Under the pieces are notes generated by a model. It was not told the origin of the DNA. It saw only the letters and a program-made list of their open reading frames with translations, and ran no database searches. From positions 52,514,001 through 52,578,000 of the forward strand of contig OX597821.1 in assembly GCA_951406725.2 (NCBI GenBank): a stretch of DNA of 64,000 bases. The letters are read 5' to 3'. The position numbers were made by a program, and so were the translations under genes. The first letter of the stretch is position 1. Every line of letters begins with the position of its first letter. Below, piece by piece: positions 781-62,560 of the stretch. This DNA comes from Octopus vulgaris (taxonomy: Eukaryota).

Positions 781-1374
781 TTTCTAGTTTCAGCTCAGAG
801 CTACGGCCATGCTGATGCACCGCCGTCTTGTACTACACTGTTATTACGACGAACCTCGTCTAATATGTGGCACTTGGTGAAGAATGGAGTTTGATATAGC
901 TACTCTCATTTGCACCTCCTGCCGTGAGGTAGGTTCATCTGGGACTCTTGACAGGAAGATGTCCAGCTTTGATTTAAAAACTGCTACATCCACTTTGTGC
1001 AAGTTCCTCAGACTCTTTGGAAGAATATTAAAAAGCTGTGGGCCCTTGAAACCTAGGCTGTTGCAGAAGCTGGTCCTGAAGCGTGATGGCATTGCTGGGA
1101 TCTTTGGCACTATGCAGTGTCGTCCCATTCTAGCATTGGTGTAGCTTACAATGCCAAAATTTGGCACAATTCCTTCCAGGATATTCCAGACATATATTAC
1201 TGGATACCTCTCCTATCTTCTCTCCAGGGAGTAGAGTCTTAGCTGTTTCAACCCTTCCCAGTAGCTGAGCTGTTGCAAAGAGATGATCTTCTTTGTGAAT
1301 CTTCTCTGGATTGCTTCAAGGTCTGCTGTTAATTTTACACTGGTGGGTGACCATAGCTGTGAGCAGTAATCTAG

Positions 1375-1375
<1 letters not shown>
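781..1375 (-). mobile_element. CR1-group non-LTR retrotransposon, 3' end (5'-truncated)
   Basis: LDYCSQLWSP...LEAIQRRFTKKI...SYWEGLKQLRLYSLERR and GPQLFNILPKSLRNL...FKSKLDIFLSRVPDEP; 3' UTR ggcggtgcatcagcatggccgtagc...gctgaaactag followed by A-tail; TA-rich microsatellite on both sides. Confidence 0.9.
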
Positions 1376-1407
<32 letters not shown>

Positions 1408-1466
1408 AGTGTGTGTATGTGTGTGTATACACACATATGTATTGATCATAAATCTATACATACATT

Positions 1467-1515
<49 letters not shown>

Positions 1516-1524
1516 TACGTTAAA

Positions 1525-9469: not shown

Positions 9470-10011
9470 ACAAGCTAATAATGACCAATATTTATGCTGA
9501 TGAAACGAGTTTTGGAAATAGGAGAAATGAATGCGATGTGGTTGGTCTTGTAAATGGTAACCACGTTAATAAGGCTAATAATGAGATTTGTAAGGATGAA
9601 AATACCATGGATGATAACAGCAACAGGAGGGAAGGGGTTGCAAATAATATGAATCATAAATGTGAATTAAGGTGTAAAGTTGGGCTTAGGTCTAATGAGG
9701 GTGATAATAGGAATAATAATAATAACAGTAGTAATGGAGATATGAATATTAGTAATAGATACATAAGTGCCCTTACATTTAGTACATCAAGCCAGGCAAC
9801 ATATTGTAATCCCACTATTAATAGTAAGTCTAGGATTCGTCAAGTTACTTGGTTTGCTCCTCCCTTTTCATTAAGGGTGAAAGGTTTACCAAAGCTATTT
9901 CCCAAAACACCATAGGTACTATACAATATGTAACAAGTCAACAATCAAGCTGTCCTACTCAGTCACTCCTAATGTCGGATCTATTATTGCTTCGTTGAAC
10001 AGAGGTAAAAT
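9470..10011 (+). mobile_element. Penelope-like element ORF fragment (post-RT/thumb-linker region)
   Basis: SRIRQVTWFAPPFSLRVK, then after a frameshift PKHHRYYTICNKSTIKLSYSVTPNVGSIIASLNR. This matches the PLE motif R-x-I-x-WFNPPFS...FP-x-H...IFN-x-NT-x-K-x-SYS. Preceded by an Asn-rich linker. Confidence 0.75.
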
Positions 10012-10575
10012 ATGCCCATTGACTCACAGCATATAGATCAGACTGGAGTTGAGTTCGGACTGCTTCTTCATTGATGATTTGCTGGAGCTTAGTGTCATGC
10101 GCAAATATTTTCACTTTGCAGTAATGTACGGCACTGGAAAGGTCGTTTATGTAAATTATGAAGAATAGCGGACCCAAGACAGTCCCCTGGGGGACACCGC
10201 TGGTGACTTTTGCTGGGCTTGAGTGGACTCCATCAACTACAACATGTTGTTTTCTATTCGCCAGGAAATACTTAATCCAGTGTAGAACTTTACCACGGAT
10301 TCCAACATTTGCCAATTTTGAGAGTAGGATATTATGGTCTACCCTGTCGAACGCTTTACTGAAGTCAAGATATATGATATCAGAGTTCGAACCTGTTCCC
10401 AAGGCCTTGAGTACATCTTCAATGTGGTGTAAGAGCTGTGTTAGACAGTCCCTGCCACAGCGAAAGCCATGCTGATTTGCATTTAGAAGTTTGTGGGTCT
10501 CCAGGAAGTCAGCTATCCTTGATCTAACACTCTTTCAAACACTTTAATGATGTGGGAGGTGAGTGAGATTGGGCG
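10012..10575 (-). mobile_element. CR1-group LINE reverse-transcriptase fragment
   Basis: [16 protein letters not shown]; DIIYLDFSKAFDRVDH; SGVPQGTVLGPLFFIIYINDL; IFAHDTKL. Confidence 0.92.
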
Positions 10576-10644: not shown

Positions 10645-11880
<1,236 letters not shown>

Positions 11881-11924: not shown

Positions 11925-13170
11925 AAATCCTTAAATCCTTAAAAATGTTTTAGTCCGAAGGCCGCGGCCATGCTGGGGCACCACCGCTGAATGAGCTACA
12001 CTAATATGTGAATCCACCTCTGATACGTGGCACCTGATCAACAAGGGAGTTTGATGCTGCCGCCCGCATCTGCTTCTCCTGTCGTGAGGTAGGTTCATCT
12101 GGGACTCCCGACAAGAAGAGATCCAGCTTAGTTTTAAAGAAATCCATATCCACACCATGTAAGTCTCTCAGGCATTTAGGGAGGATGTTAAAGAGCTGTG
12201 GTCCTCTGAAACCCAAGCTGTTGCATTATCTGGACCTGTATTTTGATGGTGATGTTGGAATCTTTGGCACCATGCAGTGGTGCCCCGTTTTGCGGTTGGG
12301 GTAACTTTGAATGCCAAAGTTTGGGACAAGACCCTCCAGGATTTTCCAGATGTATATCACCGCATATCTCTCCCGCCTCCGCTCTAGGGAGAAGAGGTTT
12401 AATACTTTCAGTCTCTCCCAGTAGCTGATATTTTGCATTGAGACGATCTTCTTTGTGCAGCTTCTCTGAATTGCTTCGAGTTCTGCCGTTAGTTTTATAT
12501 TGTGTGGTGACCATAGTTGGGAGCAGTAGTTCAAGCGGCTGAGCACGAATGTTTTCCAGAAAACCATCAGTGTCTCCTTCTCTCTATTTCTGAAAGTTCG
12601 GAGAATCCATCCAGCTAGCCGTCTGCATTTTATCACCAGATTAGTAATATGCAATTGGAAAGATGCATCATTGCTCATGTCAATGCCCAGGTCACGCACT
12701 GATTTTGACTCAGGGATTGCAATTCTTCCTGGGCCAGTGTATCCAGTCTGCACGTCGTTTACCTTTGTGTGCCGGTAGCGCAGGGCCTGGAACTTACCTG
12801 CATTAAAATGATGTTGTTGTCCTCCGCCTACCTGTATATTGTATCCAACTCCTGTTGCAGATGTGCAATATTTTCAGGGTTTTGTATTGTGTGGGAGACT
12901 TTTGTGACTTCTGCATAGCTAGCACTGGTGGCCATCATAGCAACTGAAGGCATGTCTGAAATAAGAACACCGCTTGTTATTTGTGTTTCCTTGGAGGTGG
13001 CTCCATTGCTCACAACTGCCTGTCTTCTGTCTTTTAGGAAGTTGTGCAGCCACTCTCCAAGTTTTCCGCCTATGCCGAGACCACGCAGATTGTGACAGAT
13101 CATAACATGGTCGACTTGCAAAGTCGAGATATATTACATCCACATTTGTGTCATTTAGTAGCTGTTTTAA
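11925..13170 (-). mobile_element. CR1-group LINE, 3' ~1.2 kb, degenerate
   Basis: [49 protein letters not shown]...VPDEP; 3' UTR gcggtggtgccccagcatggccgcggc. Confidence 0.92.
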
Positions 13171-14280
<1,110 letters not shown>

Positions 14281-15337
14281 TACTGTTCATAATGGCCCTC
14301 TCAGCCACGCAGAGAGCCACGATCACAAGTTATGCAGATGATACAAAAGTTTCACAGGCAATACAGAACCCTGAGGACACTAAACACCTGCAATGTGAGC
14401 TGGACGAAATATACAAGTGGGCTGAAAAGAATAGCATGCAGTTCAATGCTGGAAAGTTTCAAGCTTTATACTATCAGCATGCAAAACTGAATGCAATACC
14501 CAATGAATACACTGGACCCGGAGGGATTGCAATCCCAGAGGCACAATCAGTGCGTGACCTGGGTATTCACATGAGTGATGACGCGACCTTTCATGTACAT
14601 GTTGCTAAACTGACAATGAAATGTAGACGGCTGGCTGGATGGATTCTTAGAACCTTTAGAACAAGAGAACAAGAAACCATGATGGTCCTCTGGAAGACAC
14701 TTGTCCTAAGCCACTTTGACTATTGCTCTCAGCTATGGTCACCATCCAGTGTCAAGTTGATCACAGAACTGGAGGCGATCCAACGAAGCTACACAAAGAA
14801 GATAGCCTCTATGCAGAATGTAAGCTACTGGGAAAGACTCAAGAGATTAAAATTATATTCCCTGGAGCGTAGGCGGGAAAGATATGCCATAATATACATC
14901 TGGAAGATCCTGGAGGGAAGTGTCCTGAACTTTGGCATCGAGAGTTACGCAAATGCCAGAACTGGGCGCCACTGCGTGGTGCCTAGGACTCCAAACCTGC
15001 CATCAAGATGTAGGACAAGATACTGTGATAGCCTGGGCTTCCGAGGCCCACAGCTCTTCAATATCCTCCCGAAGAACCTGAGAGACCTGCATGGGGTGGA
15101 TACAGATGTCTTTAAAATGAAGCTGGATCTCTTCCTGTCAGGTGTCCCAGATGAACCAACTTCACGGCAGGAGGGGTAGATGAGGGCAGCTGCATCGAAC
15201 TCTCTCGTGCACCAAATAGCAGCTGCTAGAAAGCCTCCATGAAGTGAAACCAAGTAGCTACACAAAATGGCGGTGCCCCAGCATGGCCACAGCTCATAAG
15301 CTGAAACTAGAATCAATCAATCAATCAATCAATCAAT
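14281..15337 (+). mobile_element. CR1-group LINE, 3' ~1.05 kb, with an uninterrupted reading frame to 15179
   Basis: SYADDTKV...WAEKNSMQFNAGKFQ...SVRDLGIHMS...FDYCSQLWSP...LERRRERY...VPDEP; 3' UTR ggcggtgccccagcatggccacagc...gctgaaactag followed by an (AATC)n tail. Confidence 0.93.
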
Positions 15338-20359: not shown

Positions 20360-20429
<70 letters not shown>

Positions 20430-20436
<7 letters not shown>

Positions 20437-20822
20437 TTAAAATTACTAAGTCTCTCTAAAAGAGATTACGGCAGCGTTACTGGAAATTAATTGTTATCGC
20501 CATATTAATGTGGCAGTCTTATAGATATAAGACTAAAAGCTGTCGCTGATTAGCTCCATGAGGCCATCGCCTTAAGATAGCTATTTGACACACAAACTGT
20601 GTCCATTATAACCTTCGAACAAGGGAGGTCACCCGCTTCACACTGCTAGTCAGACAGCTACAGACGCGTTTCAGGGTATTTGCCCTTTGTCAATGTAGCG
20701 TAGTCAGACCCGCCAGGTGTCGCCACTGATGGTCTCTGTTCGAAGGTTTCATTTACCTAGTTTCGGTGGAATACATCCACTTGTTTTCAATAATAGAAAT
20801 ATTAAAATTACTAAGTCTCTCT
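20430..20822 (-). mobile_element. Retrozyme-like or PLE-pLTR-like non-coding element (365 bp unit plus 28 bp terminal redundancy) within (TA)n
   Basis: Exact direct repeat agaaatattaaaattactaagtctctct at 20430-20457 and 20795-20822. Contains the HHR at 20657-20699 and hairpins at 20515-20534 and 20587-20603. Both flanks are TA-rich microsatellite. Confidence 0.7.
20657..20699 (-). ncRNA. Type I minimal hammerhead ribozyme with degenerate core
   Basis: Minus strand reads GCUACA-UUGACAA-AGGG-caaaua-CCCU-GAAA-CGCG-UC|UGUAGC. Stems I and II are perfect, stem III is palindromic (ACGCGU) and the triplet is GUC. The core UUGACAA differs from CUGANGA at two positions. Confidence 0.8.
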
Positions 20823-20894
20823 TATATGTATGTATATATATATATATGTATGTATATATGTATATATATTCTTGTATATATGTATATATATTCT

Positions 20895-20940
<46 letters not shown>

Positions 20941-21059
20941 TGTATATATGTATATATGCATGTATATATGTATATATATATGCATGTATATATGTATATA
21001 TATGCATATTTATATGTATATATATGCATATATACATATATATGCATATATATGCATAT

Positions 21060-21137
<78 letters not shown>

Positions 21138-21685
21138 GTTTATTATCAGCAACAAGTCAACCATTATCTCTTAAGCTGTTTCAATTAATACTCAGTGAAT
21201 TAATTAGAGCATAATATCTTCAGTGGGAAAAATATACCGTTAGCTGTTTTATAAGTGCGGTGTGCTATACTGAATGCATAAACACACATATAAAACTTCT
21301 AAGGGCGTGTCTTTTCTCTCTGAAGTTATTAATCGCAGAGCATATGGATTTAATACTTAATTTCATTCACTGAATATAAACTGCATTGTTTTATGTATAA
21401 ATCTATTATTTCAGGTAATCAATTCTCCCAAGATATTAGGCACTGAACCAGTATTTTCTTGGATGACACCACCCTTTCATGCGGCGAACATATTACATTT
21501 ATATATACATACACACATACATATACATAGATTTATACATACAATAATGTTTTGATACTCACTTTTGATTGGATTGATTTCCACGAAGAAGTTAAATCCC
21601 ACTTCTATCCTTCTGCATATGTATCAGTATGTATGAATGTAGGTATGTATCTGTGTCTGTCTGTCTGTTTCTATCTTTATGTACG

Positions 21686-25543: not shown

Positions 25544-25612
<69 letters not shown>

Positions 25613-25613
<1 letters not shown>

Positions 25614-26170
25614 TGAAGGAGAAAATGTAACCATTCTGTGGGACTTTCCAGTACATACAGACCGAACCATCAAGGCCAATAAACCAGATATTGTTGTGAA
25701 AGACCAAAACAATAAAGTTTGCTTATTGATCGACATGAGCATCCCCTGTGATCATAATATCTCAGCGAAAGAGTTTGACAAGCTCAGAAAATATAAAGAC
25801 CTACTCATTGAAATTGAGAAAATGTGGCATCTCAAGGCGGTTACAATACCAGTAATCGTAGGAGCACTAGGAATGATCAAGAAGGGAACCGAAAATTATA
25901 TGAGAATGATCCCTGGCTTACCATCCCTGTAAGAAGTGCAAAAAATTGTCTTAACTGGTACATCACACGTATTGAGAAGAGCATTGTCGATGTGAGAACT
26001 GTTGCTGCTCATGTATTTTAATTTAACTTAAAAAAAAAAAAAAAAAAAATGAACGAACTACTGAGTTTGGTTTAATGGCCTACCAATATACACTATGAGT
26101 TTCTTTGCCCTAGGAGTCGAGAAGACACTCGGCAAGAAATGGAAGAAAATTTGAAAGAAGAAAAAAAAAG
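25613..26170 (+). mobile_element. R4/Dong-clade LINE 3' end, subfamily 2
   Basis: ENVTILWDFPVHTDRTIKANKPDIVVKD...CLLIDMSIPCDHNISAKEFDKLRKYKDLLIEIEKMWHLKAVTIPVIVGALG; (TAA)n on both sides. Confidence 0.92.
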
Positions 26171-30184: not shown

Positions 30185-31285
30185 ATAATAAAAATTGTTC
30201 AGCCTGAATCCAGTTATAAAAACATGAGAATACTTGAAGGAGGTGGAATTAAGTACAACAATATGAAAGAATAGAAATATTACTGCAACGAGTGAGATAA
30301 ATAATGGCTTCAAAGTTCAATACCAGTAGCATAATTTCGGCAATAGGCTCGCTCGCAGTTGTAGTAATCCCGTATGGTACTGAAGTCCTGAAGTGTACAG
30401 GGAAAGAAATTGGCCTGGAAGACAAGAAAGCTCCTGACGATGCATGGGTGCGGACAGTGATTGCCAATACATGAAGAAAGCAAATGGCGGAAGGGAACTG
30501 ATAAGATCGAACTCGAGAGCTTAATGAGAATAGCGAAAGAAAAAAGACAGGGCACTATACCAGCAGCACAAGACCAAGCTTTGGCCACGAATTGGCGCTT
30601 AACCTTAAGAATGAACATGTGTCTCCGCTGTGCCGCTTCTGTTCGCAGTGAATAAAACCATTGCCCATATCACGAACGAATGACCTATAATTGACCCAAA
30701 CCACAGCAAGTTGTGCCACAATGAGGTAGCGGAAGTGCTACATTGGAAACTGTTCGAAAAGTGAGGACTAGAGAAAGGCAAGACGTGGTATGAGCACATA
30801 CCAGAAAGCGTGGTGGAGTCGGAGACTAGCAAAACCCCCAGGAATTTCCCAATCCAAACAGATCAGGCGCTAGAGCATATCAGACCGGATTTAGTGGTGG
30901 TCAAAAATGTACACCACATATGCTTTATACCCGATGTTGCAAGCCCGTTTAACCCATTCAAGAAGGAAGGCAAAAAATAGATATATGCACTCGTCTTAAT
31001 TACAAAATAGACCGTCTATGGGAAATGAAGAAGATGAAAATTGCACCAATTAATGTTGGGTCTTTGGGGACAGTATCCGAAGGCATCAAGAGGAATATAA
31101 AGGATATTGGAATAGAGCGCCCTGTACAATTGTTACAAAAGATTTGCCTCCTTAGCATGGCCAGAATAATCAGTGAAGTATTAGAACAGAGAGCATGGTA
31201 CCGTAGGCTGCAAGCAGCAAGCCAGCAACGTGTGCAAGACTCCAGGAGATACAAAAAATCTTGAGATAAAAAGAAAATATTTAAT
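30185..31285 (+). mobile_element. R4/Dong-clade LINE 3' part, subfamily 3, degenerate
   Basis: AAQDQALATN, LHWKL, KTWYEHIPESVVESE, FPIQTD..LEH.RPDLVVV, MKIAPINVGSLGTV, QLLQKICLL. Confidence 0.85.
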
Positions 31286-42599: not shown

Positions 42600-43485
42600 T
42601 ATAGAGGAATGGGGGGGGGGGGGGTAAATTGTTAAGTTATCACCATTTTATATTTTTAATTTCGTGCATGCGCATTGTTTGTTTTTAGTTTTATCGACTA
42701 CAAAGTATAGTAGGGGCAGTTGGGCACCGCCTGTGAGAAAAATAGCACCATGACGCCATTCACACTGCCAGAAATTTGGAAACGACATACTGTACTACTT
42801 GGCATTCATGCCGGAAGCTCAAATACGAACATTTCAGAGTGTTTGTGTGTCAATTTGAGGACATGTACCGAGAATGATAAAATAAAACATTCAGTTAACA
42901 TCATGGTGTTTGGAATGATCACTAGTGATGGTGATGTTATGCCTCCATTCATCTTTCCACACGGTCTCAGTCTCAATACAGGCCTACATCAAGTGCCTGG
43001 AGGGGGTAGTGCTGCCCTGGGTCAAGTAGATGGCTGCAGGAAGGCGCAATTTCCTCCTGCAGGACTCTGCACCATGCCGTACAAGTAGAACACAGTCAAG
43101 GTTGTCAGACAATTTCTGCGACCACATCACCCCTAACATCTGGCCACCTAACTCCCCAGACTGCAACCTCCTTGATTATTATGTGTGGGGCGCAGTTGAG
43201 CGAGAGACCAACAAAATACATTGTAACACCAAACATCAAATGAAGTCAAGGATTATGGCAGCATTCACTAACTTAAACAAAGAGACCGCCCAGAAGAGTT
43301 GCAGGAGATTCCGAAGTCGTCTGAAGATCATAGTTCAAGCCAATGGCGATTTTATTGAATAAATCTACGCTTTAGTATTTCAAAATATTTTTATGCAATT
43401 TTGATAAATAAATCTGTTAAAATGGGGTGTCAGTATCATTTTCCTTTCTGTGTAATTTAGACAACAATATATTCACCGCACCCTG
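42600..43485 (+). mobile_element. Internally deleted Tc1/mariner-superfamily element, DD37D (maT)-like
   Basis: Fragments MVFGMITSDGDVMPPFIFPHGL and QDSAPCRTS...WPPNSPDCNLLDYYVWGAVE; 36 residues separate the last two Asp here. The right end is ...caccctg|TA; the left end is degenerate. Confidence 0.8.
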
Positions 43486-46841: not shown

Positions 46842-46879
<38 letters not shown>

Positions 46880-47140
46880 CAAATATAAAAATATATGTGA
46901 GTGCGTGTGTGGTAATGTTTCTATTTATGTTCAGTTATAATAAAAGTAATTTTACATTAATCTTATATGTTTCTGTATACTTTAATAGAGTTCAAACGTA
47001 TTGTTCCTCAACAAGAATACGTTATTGACTGTGACTTCGAAATTTCGGTCAGTTAGGACATCGTCCGGCTATAGCTTCAGTGGCAGAAACTTTGAACGTC
47101 ATCAATAATATTCTTATTCAATAATATATATATATATATT

Positions 47141-47435
47141 AGAAATATTGAATTTCGAAATATCTCAGAGAGACATGAGCGGTGGTGGAGCGATAGAGTT
47201 GTTGAGTACTGTCAACGTAACGTGACAGTCCCGTAAAGGGAATTACCTCACCGCTATTTAGCCCTAGCAAGCATCGACGCTTCCTGTCGGCTTTGACACA
47301 TTTCCTGTGTCCTTATATTTGCGAAGGGGAGGTAAGCCCCCCCCACACACACACACAGCTAGGGCTAGCACCTAGAGACATGCATGTTTCTGAGTCCATT
47401 GCTCATCATCAGTCTAGGGTAGCCAGTCCTGCTGG

Positions 47436-47437
<2 letters not shown>
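47141..47437 (-). mobile_element. Second, diverged member of the HHR-bearing retrozyme-like family
   Basis: Shares with 20430-20822 the 'agaaatatt..a.tt' start, the tttGACACA-N5-TGTGTCc hairpin, 'cgaa..gggaggt.a.ccc' and the HHR at an equivalent position. Bounded by (TA)n; may extend left to ~47035. Confidence 0.7.
47371..47418 (-). ncRNA. Type I hammerhead ribozyme, intact catalytic core
   Basis: Minus strand reads CCUAGA-CUGAUGA-UGAG-caaugga-CUCA-GAAA-CAUGCAUG-UC|UCUAGG. Stem I is CCUAGA/UCUAGG (extendable by GGCUA/UAGCC across a bulge), the CUGAUGA and GAAA boxes are canonical, stem II is UGAG/CUCA, stem III is palindromic (ACAUGCAUGU) and the cleavage triplet is GUC (cut between 47377 and 47376). 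Confidence 0.9.
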
Positions 47438-47594: not shown

Positions 47595-48009
47595 TTGGGT
47601 TGTCCGGAAAGTTCGAACTGCTTTTTAAAGGAAAGGAAAAGGTCAATAAATACTTGGCATTACATTTTTGATCAACCAAATATGAGCTATTTTGTTGCAC
47701 AATGCGTCTCCATCTTTTCTTTAACTTGAAAATATCCTATCCCCAGAATTGAGGTAGTTTCATGCCAAAGAATTCATCAAGGTATCTTTTACGTCATCCA
47801 AGGAATTGAAATGTTTATCATTAAGACTATTCTGCAGAGACCTGAATAAGTGGAAATCCAAAGGAGCAATATCTGGTGAATATGGAGGGTGGGGTAACAC
47901 ATCTCAGCCGAGCTGCAGCAATTTTTGTCTGGTTCCCAAAGCATCAAGCGCTAAAATAAGTCGGAAGGTAAGCTGCTATCAATCGGCACGAACTTTCCGG
48001 ACAACCCAA
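47595..48009 (-). mobile_element. Internally deleted mariner element (415 bp)
   Basis: TIRs ttgggttgtccggaaagttcg / cgaactttccggacaacccaa with TA on both sides. The minus strand encodes the transposase C-terminus, HPPYSPDIAPLDFHLFRSLQNSL. Confidence 0.9.
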
Positions 48010-48689: not shown

Positions 48690-49265
48690 GGCGACACGAT
48701 CAGGCAGCGAATATTCTACATTGGAGATTGTACACGAAATGGGGGTTACCGAGATTTAAGACATGGTATGAGCAAAAAACGCAGAGTAGCGCAGTCGGAG
48801 ACTAGCAAAATCCTCCGGAATTTCCCAATCCAAACAGATCAGGCTTTACAGCATAACAGACTGGACTTAGTCTGTTGGGCATAACAGACCTGACGTAGTA
48901 GTGGGCAAGGTGCACCACATAGGCTGTATAGTTGATGTTGCATGCCCCTTTGACCCACGGATAGTCAAGAAGGAAGGCGAAAAGATAGATAAATATAACC
49001 CTATTAAGTACGAAATGGCCGGGCTTTGGAAAATGAAGGTGAAGATAGCGCCAATTATTGTTGGATCCTTGGGAACAGTATCAGAAAGTATCAAGTGGAA
49101 TATAAAGGAAATTGGAATAGAGTGATTTCTTGGTACGGCCAGAATAATCAGAAAAGTATTAGATAGTTGAAAAGAACGGATAGCATGGGAAATGGGCTAC
49201 AGGTAGGAAGCCTGCTACGCATGCAAGACTCCATGAGCTCCAAGAAAATCTGTGATAAAGAGAAA
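48690..49265 (+). mobile_element. R4/Dong-clade LINE 3' end, subfamily 3
   Basis: KILRNFPIQTDQALQHNRLDLV; RPDVVV...IVDVACPFDPRIVKKEGEKIDKY...KIAPIIVGSLGTV. Nucleotide similarity to 30700-31270. Confidence 0.87.
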
Positions 49266-61939: not shown

Positions 61940-62560
61940 TAATAATCCTTTTCTACCAAATGCGCAATGCCTGAAATTTGGTGGGGATTAGTCGATCACA
62001 TCGACCCCAGTGTCTAGCTGGTATTTATTTAATCGAGCCCGAAAAGATGAACGGCAAAATCGACTTCGCCGAAATTTGAACTCAGAACGTAGTGACGGGC
62101 GAAATACTGCTAAGTATTTCGTCCAGCGTGCTATCATTTCTTACTTATGAATTGCCCACAAAGGGATAAAGATACAGGGGACAAATAAGGACAGACAAAC
62201 GGATTAAGTCGATTACATCGACTGCAGTGCGTAACTGGTACTTATTTATTAGACCCCGAAAGGATTAGAGGCAAAGTCGACCTCGGTGTAATTTGAACTT
62301 AGAACGTAGCGGCAGACGAAATACCTATTTCTTTCCTACCCACAAGGGGCTAAACACAGAGAGGACAAGCAAGAGCAGACAAACGGATTAAGTCGATTAT
62401 ATCGACCCCAGTGCGTAACTGGTACTTATTTAATCGACCCTGATAGGATTAGAGGCAAAGTCGACCTTCTCGGAATTTGAACTCGGAACGTAACGGCAGA
62501 GGAAAAACGGCTACGCATTTCGCCCGGCGTGCTAACATTTCTGCCAGCTCACTGCCTTAG
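61940..62560 (-). mobile_element. SINE family B with a triplicated core
   Basis: Three tandem ~180-190 bp copies of gtcgattacatcgacccc.gtgcgtaactggtac...aaagtcgacctcgg...atttgaactcagaacgta. Confidence 0.85.

What the first reader, a model, noticed from the sequence alone, without database searches (positions are those of the whole stretch)
20430..20822. Monomer-plus-28-bp terminal redundancy, as expected from reverse transcription around a circular RNA or tandem template
Seen: the element begins and ends with the same exact 28-mer (period 365 bp), the HHR is internal rather than terminal, and both flanks are TA microsatellite, so the repeat is part of the element and not a target-site duplication. 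The 47 kb relative also has 'ttcaataata(TA)n-agaaatatt' running through the same junction. Inference: a circularly permuted copy, consistent with cDNA synthesis on a ~365 nt circle or a multimer.
Basis: partly seen in the sequence, partly recalled or inferred. Interest (0 to 1): 0.7.

Follow-up and report, generated by a model that had tools for sequence, protein, structure and literature searches.

The report
Octopus ribozyme retroelement with overlapping ends
A 393-base insert in a TA repeat carries a predicted self-cutting hammerhead RNA and begins and ends with the same 28-30 bases, likely because a Penelope-type reverse transcriptase copied just over one round of a circular or tandem RNA from a fixed start, which makes it a likely new octopus example of a known kind of mobile element (a retrozyme).

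Summary
An exact 30-nt repeat (28 nt once the bases shared with the TA run are removed) with period 365 bounds a 393-bp insert in a microsatellite. A type I hammerhead (U3-A8 core variant) lies inside it on the minus strand. The repeat is not a target-site duplication, because the 58%-identical relative at 47.1 kb begins with a homologous 28-mer. Random permutation is not supported. Both copies abut a TA run at the same base, 233 and 236 nt past the cut site, and that end is their best-conserved part. This fits the fixed internal start of Penelope-like (PLE) reverse transcription and (TA)n targeting. The overlap is either a short upstream truncated copy or a PLE 'tail'. The host is likely an octopod, and a PLE remnant lies 10 kb away. 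Verdict: likely new member of the non-LTR retrozymes. Only two copies were available, so circle versus multimer and tail versus random truncation stay open.

The parts
20430..20822 (-). Whole insertion, 393 bp: one 365-nt unit plus 28 nt; non-coding, 42% GC
   Evidence: circular fold z -4.55 on the minus strand and -5.1 on the plus strand, 60 shuffles each; no tRNA in the window
20428..20457 (-). Terminal repeat copy at the inferred fixed 3' end of the RNA-sense strand; first 2 nt shared with the TA run
   Evidence: homologous to 47141-47168
20793..20822 (-). Second, identical terminal repeat copy at the inferred 5' end (short upstream truncated unit, or PLE tail)
   Evidence: 30 of 30 identical
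20657..20699 (-). Predicted type I hammerhead: 6-bp helix I, core with U3-A8 covariation, 4-bp helix II with CAAAUA loop, short palindromic helix III, cleavage after 20663
   Evidence: helices I and II form in the MFE; U3-A8 variant described in PMC4209133; the same loop 2 in the Schistosoma hammerhead, PMC2632901
20785..20807 (-). Predicted 8-bp hairpin spanning the internal unit junction; the element's fixed end maps to its loop
   Evidence: loop bases 0.93-0.99 unpaired in the circular ensemble; joining gain -6.1 kcal/mol, 40 of 1000 shuffles as good, rank 3 of 285 possible joins
20452..20464 (-). Predicted hairpin shared with the 47-kb copy; the other end of the 28-mer maps to the edge of its loop
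20587..20603 (-). 6-bp hairpin whose stem is invariant between the two copies
20609..20748 (.). Long imperfect stem with the hammerhead at its tip
   Evidence: self inverted hit E 1.4e-4
20362..20429 (.). Left target microsatellite (CA)n(TA)n
20823..21143 (.). Right target microsatellite, imperfect (TA)n
47141..47436 (-). Diverged relative, 163 of 279 aligned bases identical; same left end; stops 60 nt past the cleavage site; TA runs on both sides
   Evidence: nhmmer E 3.5e-10
47371..47418 (-). Predicted type I hammerhead of the relative, canonical CUGAUGA core, cleavage after 47377
   Evidence: its isolated MFE is an alternative fold
47116..47140 (-). 9-10 nt matching the unit end, plus (TA)8, left of the relative; can pair with 47146-47153
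   Evidence: no folding gain over shuffles (484 of 1000)

Best explanation
This is a 393-bp insert in a TA microsatellite with an exact 28-30-nt terminal repeat and a predicted minus-strand hammerhead, likely a dispersed copy of a non-autonomous, retrozyme-type retroelement that a Penelope-like (PLE) enzyme likely inserted by reverse transcription from a fixed internal start on a more-than-unit RNA. Shown: the repeat, the period, the flanks, the hammerhead-shaped motif with covariation between two copies, the shared left end, and extension of both copies past the cleavage site. Inferred steps: (1) a tandem master locus elsewhere is transcribed, and the hammerhead cuts it into 365-nt units that can circularise; (2) a (TA)n-targeting PLE endonuclease nicks a TA run; (3) the PLE reverse transcriptase starts in the loop of the junction hairpin, about 235 nt downstream of the cut site; (4) it copies through the intact cut site; (5) it stops after 296 nt in the 47-kb copy and after one round plus 28 nt here. 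I favour a circle over an uncut multimer at about 55:45. I favour ordinary 5' truncation over a precise tail boundary at about 60:40.
For: Exact repeat and period. Strict hammerhead hits 2 versus 0 in 30 shuffles. Read from the two hits, 5 of 11 pairs (helix I, helix II and the 3:8 core pair) change on both sides and none breaks. Both copies meet a TA run at the same base: matches of 30 and 9 nt to the unit start, next best 5, among 94 TA-run right edges. Cut-site-to-end distances are 233 and 236 nt, and read-through is 160 and 60 nt. The terminal 34 columns are 25 of 33 identical against 98 of 180 in the body. The junction folds better than 960 of 1000 shuffles. Unit size, GC content and fold match non-LTR retrozymes (170-400 nt; mussel 350-390 nt; PMC7229834). 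PLE RT starts internally at two adjacent sites in a stem-loop, nicks AT-rich DNA and uses uncut RNA (PMC11167929). Octopus Naiad and Hydra PLEs prefer (TA)n (PMC8557442 supplement). A PLE ORF remnant lies at 9823-10030, and its closest named protein is from Octopus sinensis.
Against: Only two copies were available, so 'fixed end' rests on n = 2. There is no tandem array or second intact hammerhead at either locus. The 9-nt match left of the 47-kb TA run could mean that copy runs on through the junction, which would give it a different start. No sequence link to any autonomous PLE was found: eight element-derived motifs of 10-14 nt (seven absent; one 9-mer with 5 hits, the 2 shown in unrelated context) were searched in the Craig 2021 supplement, and the Hydra-1_Obim end lies only about 35 nt past its ribozyme. 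Junction pairing is modest (p about 0.04) and absent at 47 kb (484 of 1000). Folding z-scores do not pick a strand. Rfam calls no hammerhead. Self-cleavage is untested, and only 1 of 9 predicted Xenopus retrozymes cleaved in vitro (bioRxiv 10.64898/2026.07.22.740005).
Confidence: 0.6

Rival explanations
1. Precise PLE tail (a variant of the best explanation): the 28-30 nt lie between two fixed RT start or endonuclease-resolution sites, so unit-plus-tail is a recurrent, fixed insertion form.
For: The length is close to the 30-40-bp tail (PMC8557442; 31 bp in PMC3846280). The tail is the stretch between two RT start sites (PMC11167929). Both ends of the 28-mer fall at predicted hairpin loops, which cover 42 of 365 nt, and the second hairpin is shared with the relative.
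Against: One copy only; 28-30 is at or below the published range; the loop coincidence was noticed after the fact.
Confidence: 0.25
2. One reading: copies are random circular permutations of a 365-nt circle.
For: Nine nt of the unit end lie left of the 47-kb TA run, so that copy may span the junction. Circles dominate in mussel retrozymes.
Against: The TA run sits at the same unit position in both loci. Left-flank homology and pairing with the body (65 and 77 of 300 shuffles, against 7 and 3 of 300 for the 20-kb controls) are not significant.
Confidence: 0.1
4. Assembly collapse of a longer array (n x 365 + 28 written as n = 1).
For: Retrozymes occur as arrays, and the flanks are microsatellite.
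Against: The window has no N and resolves a 1.1-kb TA array, which suggests long reads. Collapse would not change the end positions.
Confidence: 0.06
5. The mobiliser is another LINE (RTE, CR1 or R4 type) and not a PLE.
For: RTE, Dong-R4 and CR1 are recently active in Octopus vulgaris (PMC13282606). RTE partners associate with microsatellite-like ends (PMC6007223 abstract).
Against: No poly(A) or simple-repeat tail other than the target, no TSD, and an internal start on a more-than-unit template.
Confidence: 0.12
6. The 28-mer is a target-site duplication.
For: It is an exact direct repeat at both ends; retrozyme TSDs, when present, exceed 4 bp.
Against: The relative 27 kb away starts with a homologous 28-mer, the flanks beyond it are microsatellite, and the 28-mer pairs with element-internal sequence.
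Confidence: 0.02

Closest known systems
Metazoan non-LTR retrozymes (Cervera and de la Pena 2020, PMC7229834; mussel family 350-390 nt)
   Same: 365-nt non-coding unit, GC below 50%, canonical type I hammerhead with 6-bp and 4-bp helices and a short palindromic helix III, strongly self-paired, mollusc host, PLEs in the same genome.
   Different: Seen here as a dispersed 1.08-unit copy, not an array. U3-A8 core. Defined end at (TA)n. Circular RNA and cleavage untested.
Non-autonomous PLE derivatives and pLTRs (bioRxiv 10.64898/2026.07.22.740005; MRC1-type Chlamys in PMC8557442)
   Same: Partial tandem, a shared 3' end with a variable 5' end, microsatellite target, hammerhead upstream of the end.
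   Different: No similarity to an autonomous PLE end was found. The hammerhead is of the canonical retrozyme type and not the minimal PLE type.
PAc Poseidon PLE of Anolis (PMC11167929)
   Same: End lies downstream of the hammerhead in a predicted stem-loop, target is AT-rich, the cut site is read through, tail-sized terminal segment.
   Different: PAc is autonomous and starts about 85-92 nt past its cut site (111-118 minus 26) in an AC-rich loop; here about 235 nt, in a U-rich loop.
Octopus Hydra-1_Obim and Naiad PLEs (PMC8557442 supplement)
   Same: (TA)n targeting in octopus; four Hydra-1_Obim copies end at one site; Hydra elements carry hammerheads.
   Different: They are protein-coding and 2.5-4 kb long. 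Naiads lack canonical hammerheads and are inactive remnants in cephalopods. No shared motif was found.

Membership tests
non-LTR retrozyme | Canonical type I hammerhead in the unit | tested here: met
   Descriptor hit with covariation between two copies; Rfam models did not detect it
non-LTR retrozyme | Unit of about 170-400 nt, GC below 50%, non-coding, highly self-paired | tested here: met
   365 nt, 42% GC; z -4.9 linear and -4.55 circular; no ORF of 100 aa inside the unit
non-LTR retrozyme | Occurs as tandem repeats with two or more hammerheads | tested here: inconclusive
   Only 1.08 units here and 0.8 unit at 47 kb; monomers are common in such families; the rest of the genome was not available
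non-LTR retrozyme | No LTR, PBS or PPT; not tRNA-derived | tested here: inconclusive
   The only repeat is 30 nt and there is no tRNA; PBS and PPT were not searched for
non-LTR retrozyme | Self-cleavage and expression as circular RNA | not testable with these tools
   Needs in vitro transcription and RT-PCR or northern blot
non-autonomous PLE | Fixed 3' end, variable 5' truncation, partial tandem | tested here: inconclusive
   Fits 2 of 2 copies, but the 9-nt match left of the 47-kb TA run leaves another reading open
non-autonomous PLE | Insertion into (TA)n without a discernible TSD | tested here: met
   TA on both sides of both copies
non-autonomous PLE | Similarity to the pLTR or 3' end of an autonomous PLE | tested here: inconclusive
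   No informative motif match in the Craig 2021 supplement; Repbase and Dfam not available
non-autonomous PLE | Optional 30-40-bp tail | tested here: inconclusive
   28-30 nt with both ends at predicted loops; single copy
autonomous PLE | RT plus GIY-YIG ORF | tested here: not met
   The insert is 393 bp with no such ORF

The most novel reading that the evidence does not exclude
A cephalopod retrozyme family that carries the PLE integration signature in its own ends: two conserved hairpin loops 28-30 nt apart act as the two RT start sites, insertion is targeted to (TA)n, and a 365-nt circle is copied one full turn plus the tail. This would be direct genomic evidence for which enzyme (a Hydra-clade or related PLE) moves animal retrozymes, and that the circle is the template.
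Probability: 0.2. Interest if true: 0.65.

Novelty: new member of a known kind. Interest (0 to 1): 0.38.

Why it matters
The more-than-unit, circle-templated model for animal retrozymes is published but remains a hypothesis (PMC4209133, PMC7229834). A 2020 review says their repeats show no motif that points to the mobilising element (PMC7761336). A family with a fixed end in a hairpin loop, TA targeting and a tail-sized overlap would make two questions testable from one genome: whether PLEs move retrozymes, and whether the template is a circle. My searches found no paper describing an octopus retrozyme family. Repbase, Dfam, most subscription journals, the bioRxiv supplements and the O. vulgaris repeat library were not seen, so it may already be catalogued as an unnamed repeat. 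As a single locus it is an ordinary copy of a known class.

Tried and rejected
Rfam at gathering threshold and at E up to 10 gave no hammerhead or other real family. blastn did not find the 47-kb relative; nhmmer did. No third copy in the window. One scan of the bacterial and archaeal genome collection gave 0 matches. Metagenome and viral contig collections stayed unchecked, and no octopus genome was available. Homology of the 47-kb left flank to the distal unit was not significant, nor was its pairing with the body, nor its junction folding gain. Counting helix I pairs on the MAFFT alignment failed because the gap at helix III was misplaced, so pairs were read from the descriptor output. Decayed hammerhead-like motifs just past both junctions come from a descriptor written after seeing them (6 hits against a null mean of 3.15) and are not counted as evidence. 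A tRNA-derived SINE was rejected. TSD was rejected. PMC5785218 was not held. No structure or complex prediction was run, since the element has no protein.

Full report
Observation. The stretch 20428-20457 is repeated exactly at 20793-20822, period 365. Two leading bases are shared with the TA run, so the repeat is 28-30 nt. The insert 20430-20822 lies between (CA)n(TA)n and an imperfect TA array. Two identical 30-mers bound their divergence below about 9.5%. Eight other exact 28-mer repeats within 1 kb exist in the window; the three I inspected belong to longer imperfect repeats.

The ribozyme. A structural descriptor gave 5 loose hits, of which 2 pass strict criteria, against 0 strict hits in 30 of 30 shuffles. 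Both are on the minus strand, at 20699-20657 and 47418-47371. The first has the U3-A8 core variant reported in Schistosoma PLE hammerheads (PMC4209133, parts 1-2 of 4 read). It also has a CAAAUA loop 2, as in the Schistosoma hammerhead (PMC2632901, passages). The second has the canonical core. Reading pairs from the two hits, helix I differs on both sides at 2 of 6 pairs, helix II at 2 of 4, and the 3:8 core pair also switches; none of the 11 pairs breaks. Rfam finds neither. The isolated 47-kb motif prefers another fold, while the 20-kb motif forms helices I and II. The unit folds far better than shuffles (z -4.9 linear; -4.55 circular), on either strand. Cleavage is untested.

The relative. 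nhmmer aligns unit positions 2-287 to 47142-47435 (E 3.5e-10), with 163 of 279 aligned bases identical. No third copy was found in the window or in prokaryotic genomes. The relative begins with a homologue of the 28-mer (21 identities in 29 columns; 12 of 42,648 sampled 28-mers score as well, including the element's own copies), so the repeat is not a TSD. Among 94 TA-run right edges, only 20430 (30 nt) and 47140 (9 nt) match the unit start beyond 5 nt. The cut-site-to-end distances are 233 and 236 nt. The last 12 columns are 11 of 12 identical and the last 34 are 25 of 33, against 98 of 180 in the body. The other ends differ: 160 and 60 nt past the cut site. This is a fixed end with a variable opposite end, on n = 2.

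Does the relative run through the junction? Nine nt left of its TA run match the unit end, the best of 94 left edges (next 7), and an 8-bp stem can close over the run. Beyond that, sequence similarity (93 of 1000; 567 of 1000 without those bases; positive controls 4, 1 and 0 of 1000), pairing with the body (65 and 77 of 300) and folding gain (484 of 1000) are not significant. The match may reflect read-through with a TA expansion, priming on a target that resembles the RNA, or chance. It is unresolved. In every reading the TA run sits at the same unit position.

Is 365 a real unit? In the circular ensemble the junction lies in a 7-nt loop (0.93-0.99 unpaired) closed by an 8-bp stem, and the other end of the 28-mer lies at the loop of a second hairpin shared with the relative. 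Joining the 28-mer to its true neighbour gains -6.1 kcal/mol; 40 of 1000 shuffles do as well, and the join ranks 3 of 285. This is modest support for an evolved junction.

Host and candidate mobiliser. The ORF end at 9.8 kb matches an Octopus sinensis protein at 82% (1 hit among 5 candidates), so the host is likely an octopod. A 73-residue stretch of that protein has 1253 relatives. Six long ones were examined: all six have an RT-type DD motif, two have weak C-terminal GIY-YIG matches below the Pfam cut-off, and one has the Hydra RWK motif. All six align only to 9823-10030. This is likely a PLE remnant, probably Hydra-like (PMC8557442 section 11). Octopus Hydra and Naiad families prefer (TA)n (supplement rows and part 2 of 59). 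O. vulgaris has 336 recent Penelope-like insertions (PMC13282606, passages; its supplement was listed but not read). No sequence link between the element and these PLEs was found.

Mechanism. A linear unit cut by the ribozyme would give at most about 233 nt of cDNA from this start. Both copies go further, so the template was a ligated circle or an uncut multimer (inference). In vitro, a PLE enzyme nicks AT-rich DNA, starts at two adjacent internal sites in a stem-loop downstream of the hammerhead, and mainly uses uncut RNA; the stretch between the two sites is the 30-40-bp tail (PMC11167929, parts 1-2 of 4). PLE insertions are partial tandems with an optional tail (PMC8557442 passages; PMC3846280 passages). 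Mussel retrozymes of 350-390 nt accumulate mostly as circles (PMC7229834 passages and sections 14 and 17). I therefore commit to PLE-driven reverse transcription from a fixed loop on a more-than-unit template (0.6), with circle slightly ahead of multimer. The overlap is either a short upstream truncated unit or the tail.

Comparison and verdict. The element works like a non-LTR retrozyme and meets the sequence and structure criteria. The tandem arrangement, cleavage and circular RNA could not be shown. A 2026 preprint argues that such elements are non-autonomous PLE derivatives (10.64898/2026.07.22.740005, parts 1-3 of 5; supplements not seen). More-than-unit cDNA from circles is already the published model. 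Searches found no description of an octopus family. The RTE rival rests on an abstract only (PMC6007223). Verdict: real feature, likely new member of a known kind, interest 0.38.

Noticed in passing
window 9823-10030 (+): Broken PLE-like ORF end (linker between RT and GIY-YIG), probably Hydra-like, abutting a LINE RT remnant; its closest named protein is annotated as a kinase in Octopus sinensis, likely a mis-annotation.
   Followed up: yes
window 20790-20754 (-) and 47080-47033 (-): Decayed minimal-hammerhead-like motifs just past the junction at both loci, each with the same 3:8 core pair type as its neighbouring intact hammerhead; helix I is missing; post hoc descriptor, 6 hits versus a null mean of 3.15. 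The 47-kb one may be the end of a separate PLE between TA runs 46844-46896 and 47124.
   Followed up: partly
window 9959-10534 (-), 12041-12873 (-), 14100-15208 (+), 844-1524 (-): Several LINE RT remnants (RVT_1 E 2.7e-19 and 0.0015 for the two scanned), forming 72-76% inverted pairs; the CR1/L2-type label is recalled.
   Followed up: partly
window 25612-25932, 30953-31264, 48867-49196: Peptides resembling R2/R4 (Dong-like) endonuclease ends, two of them near trinucleotide repeats; label recalled; no Pfam hit for the first two, the third not scanned.
   Followed up: no
window 42714-43362 and about 47600-48000: Tc1/mariner-like transposase remnants; label recalled; no Pfam hit for the frames scanned.
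   Followed up: no
window 62155-62505: 184-bp tandem dimer of a SINE-like repeat; the SINE label is recalled.
   Followed up: no
window 11258-11556: 112-bp minisatellite, 2.8 copies, with strong C-over-G skew in the region.
   Followed up: no
window 16262/16581, 41060/41237, 58391/58502: Nearby imperfect direct repeats with exact 28-38-nt cores; apparently adjacent copies of other repeats.
   Followed up: partly
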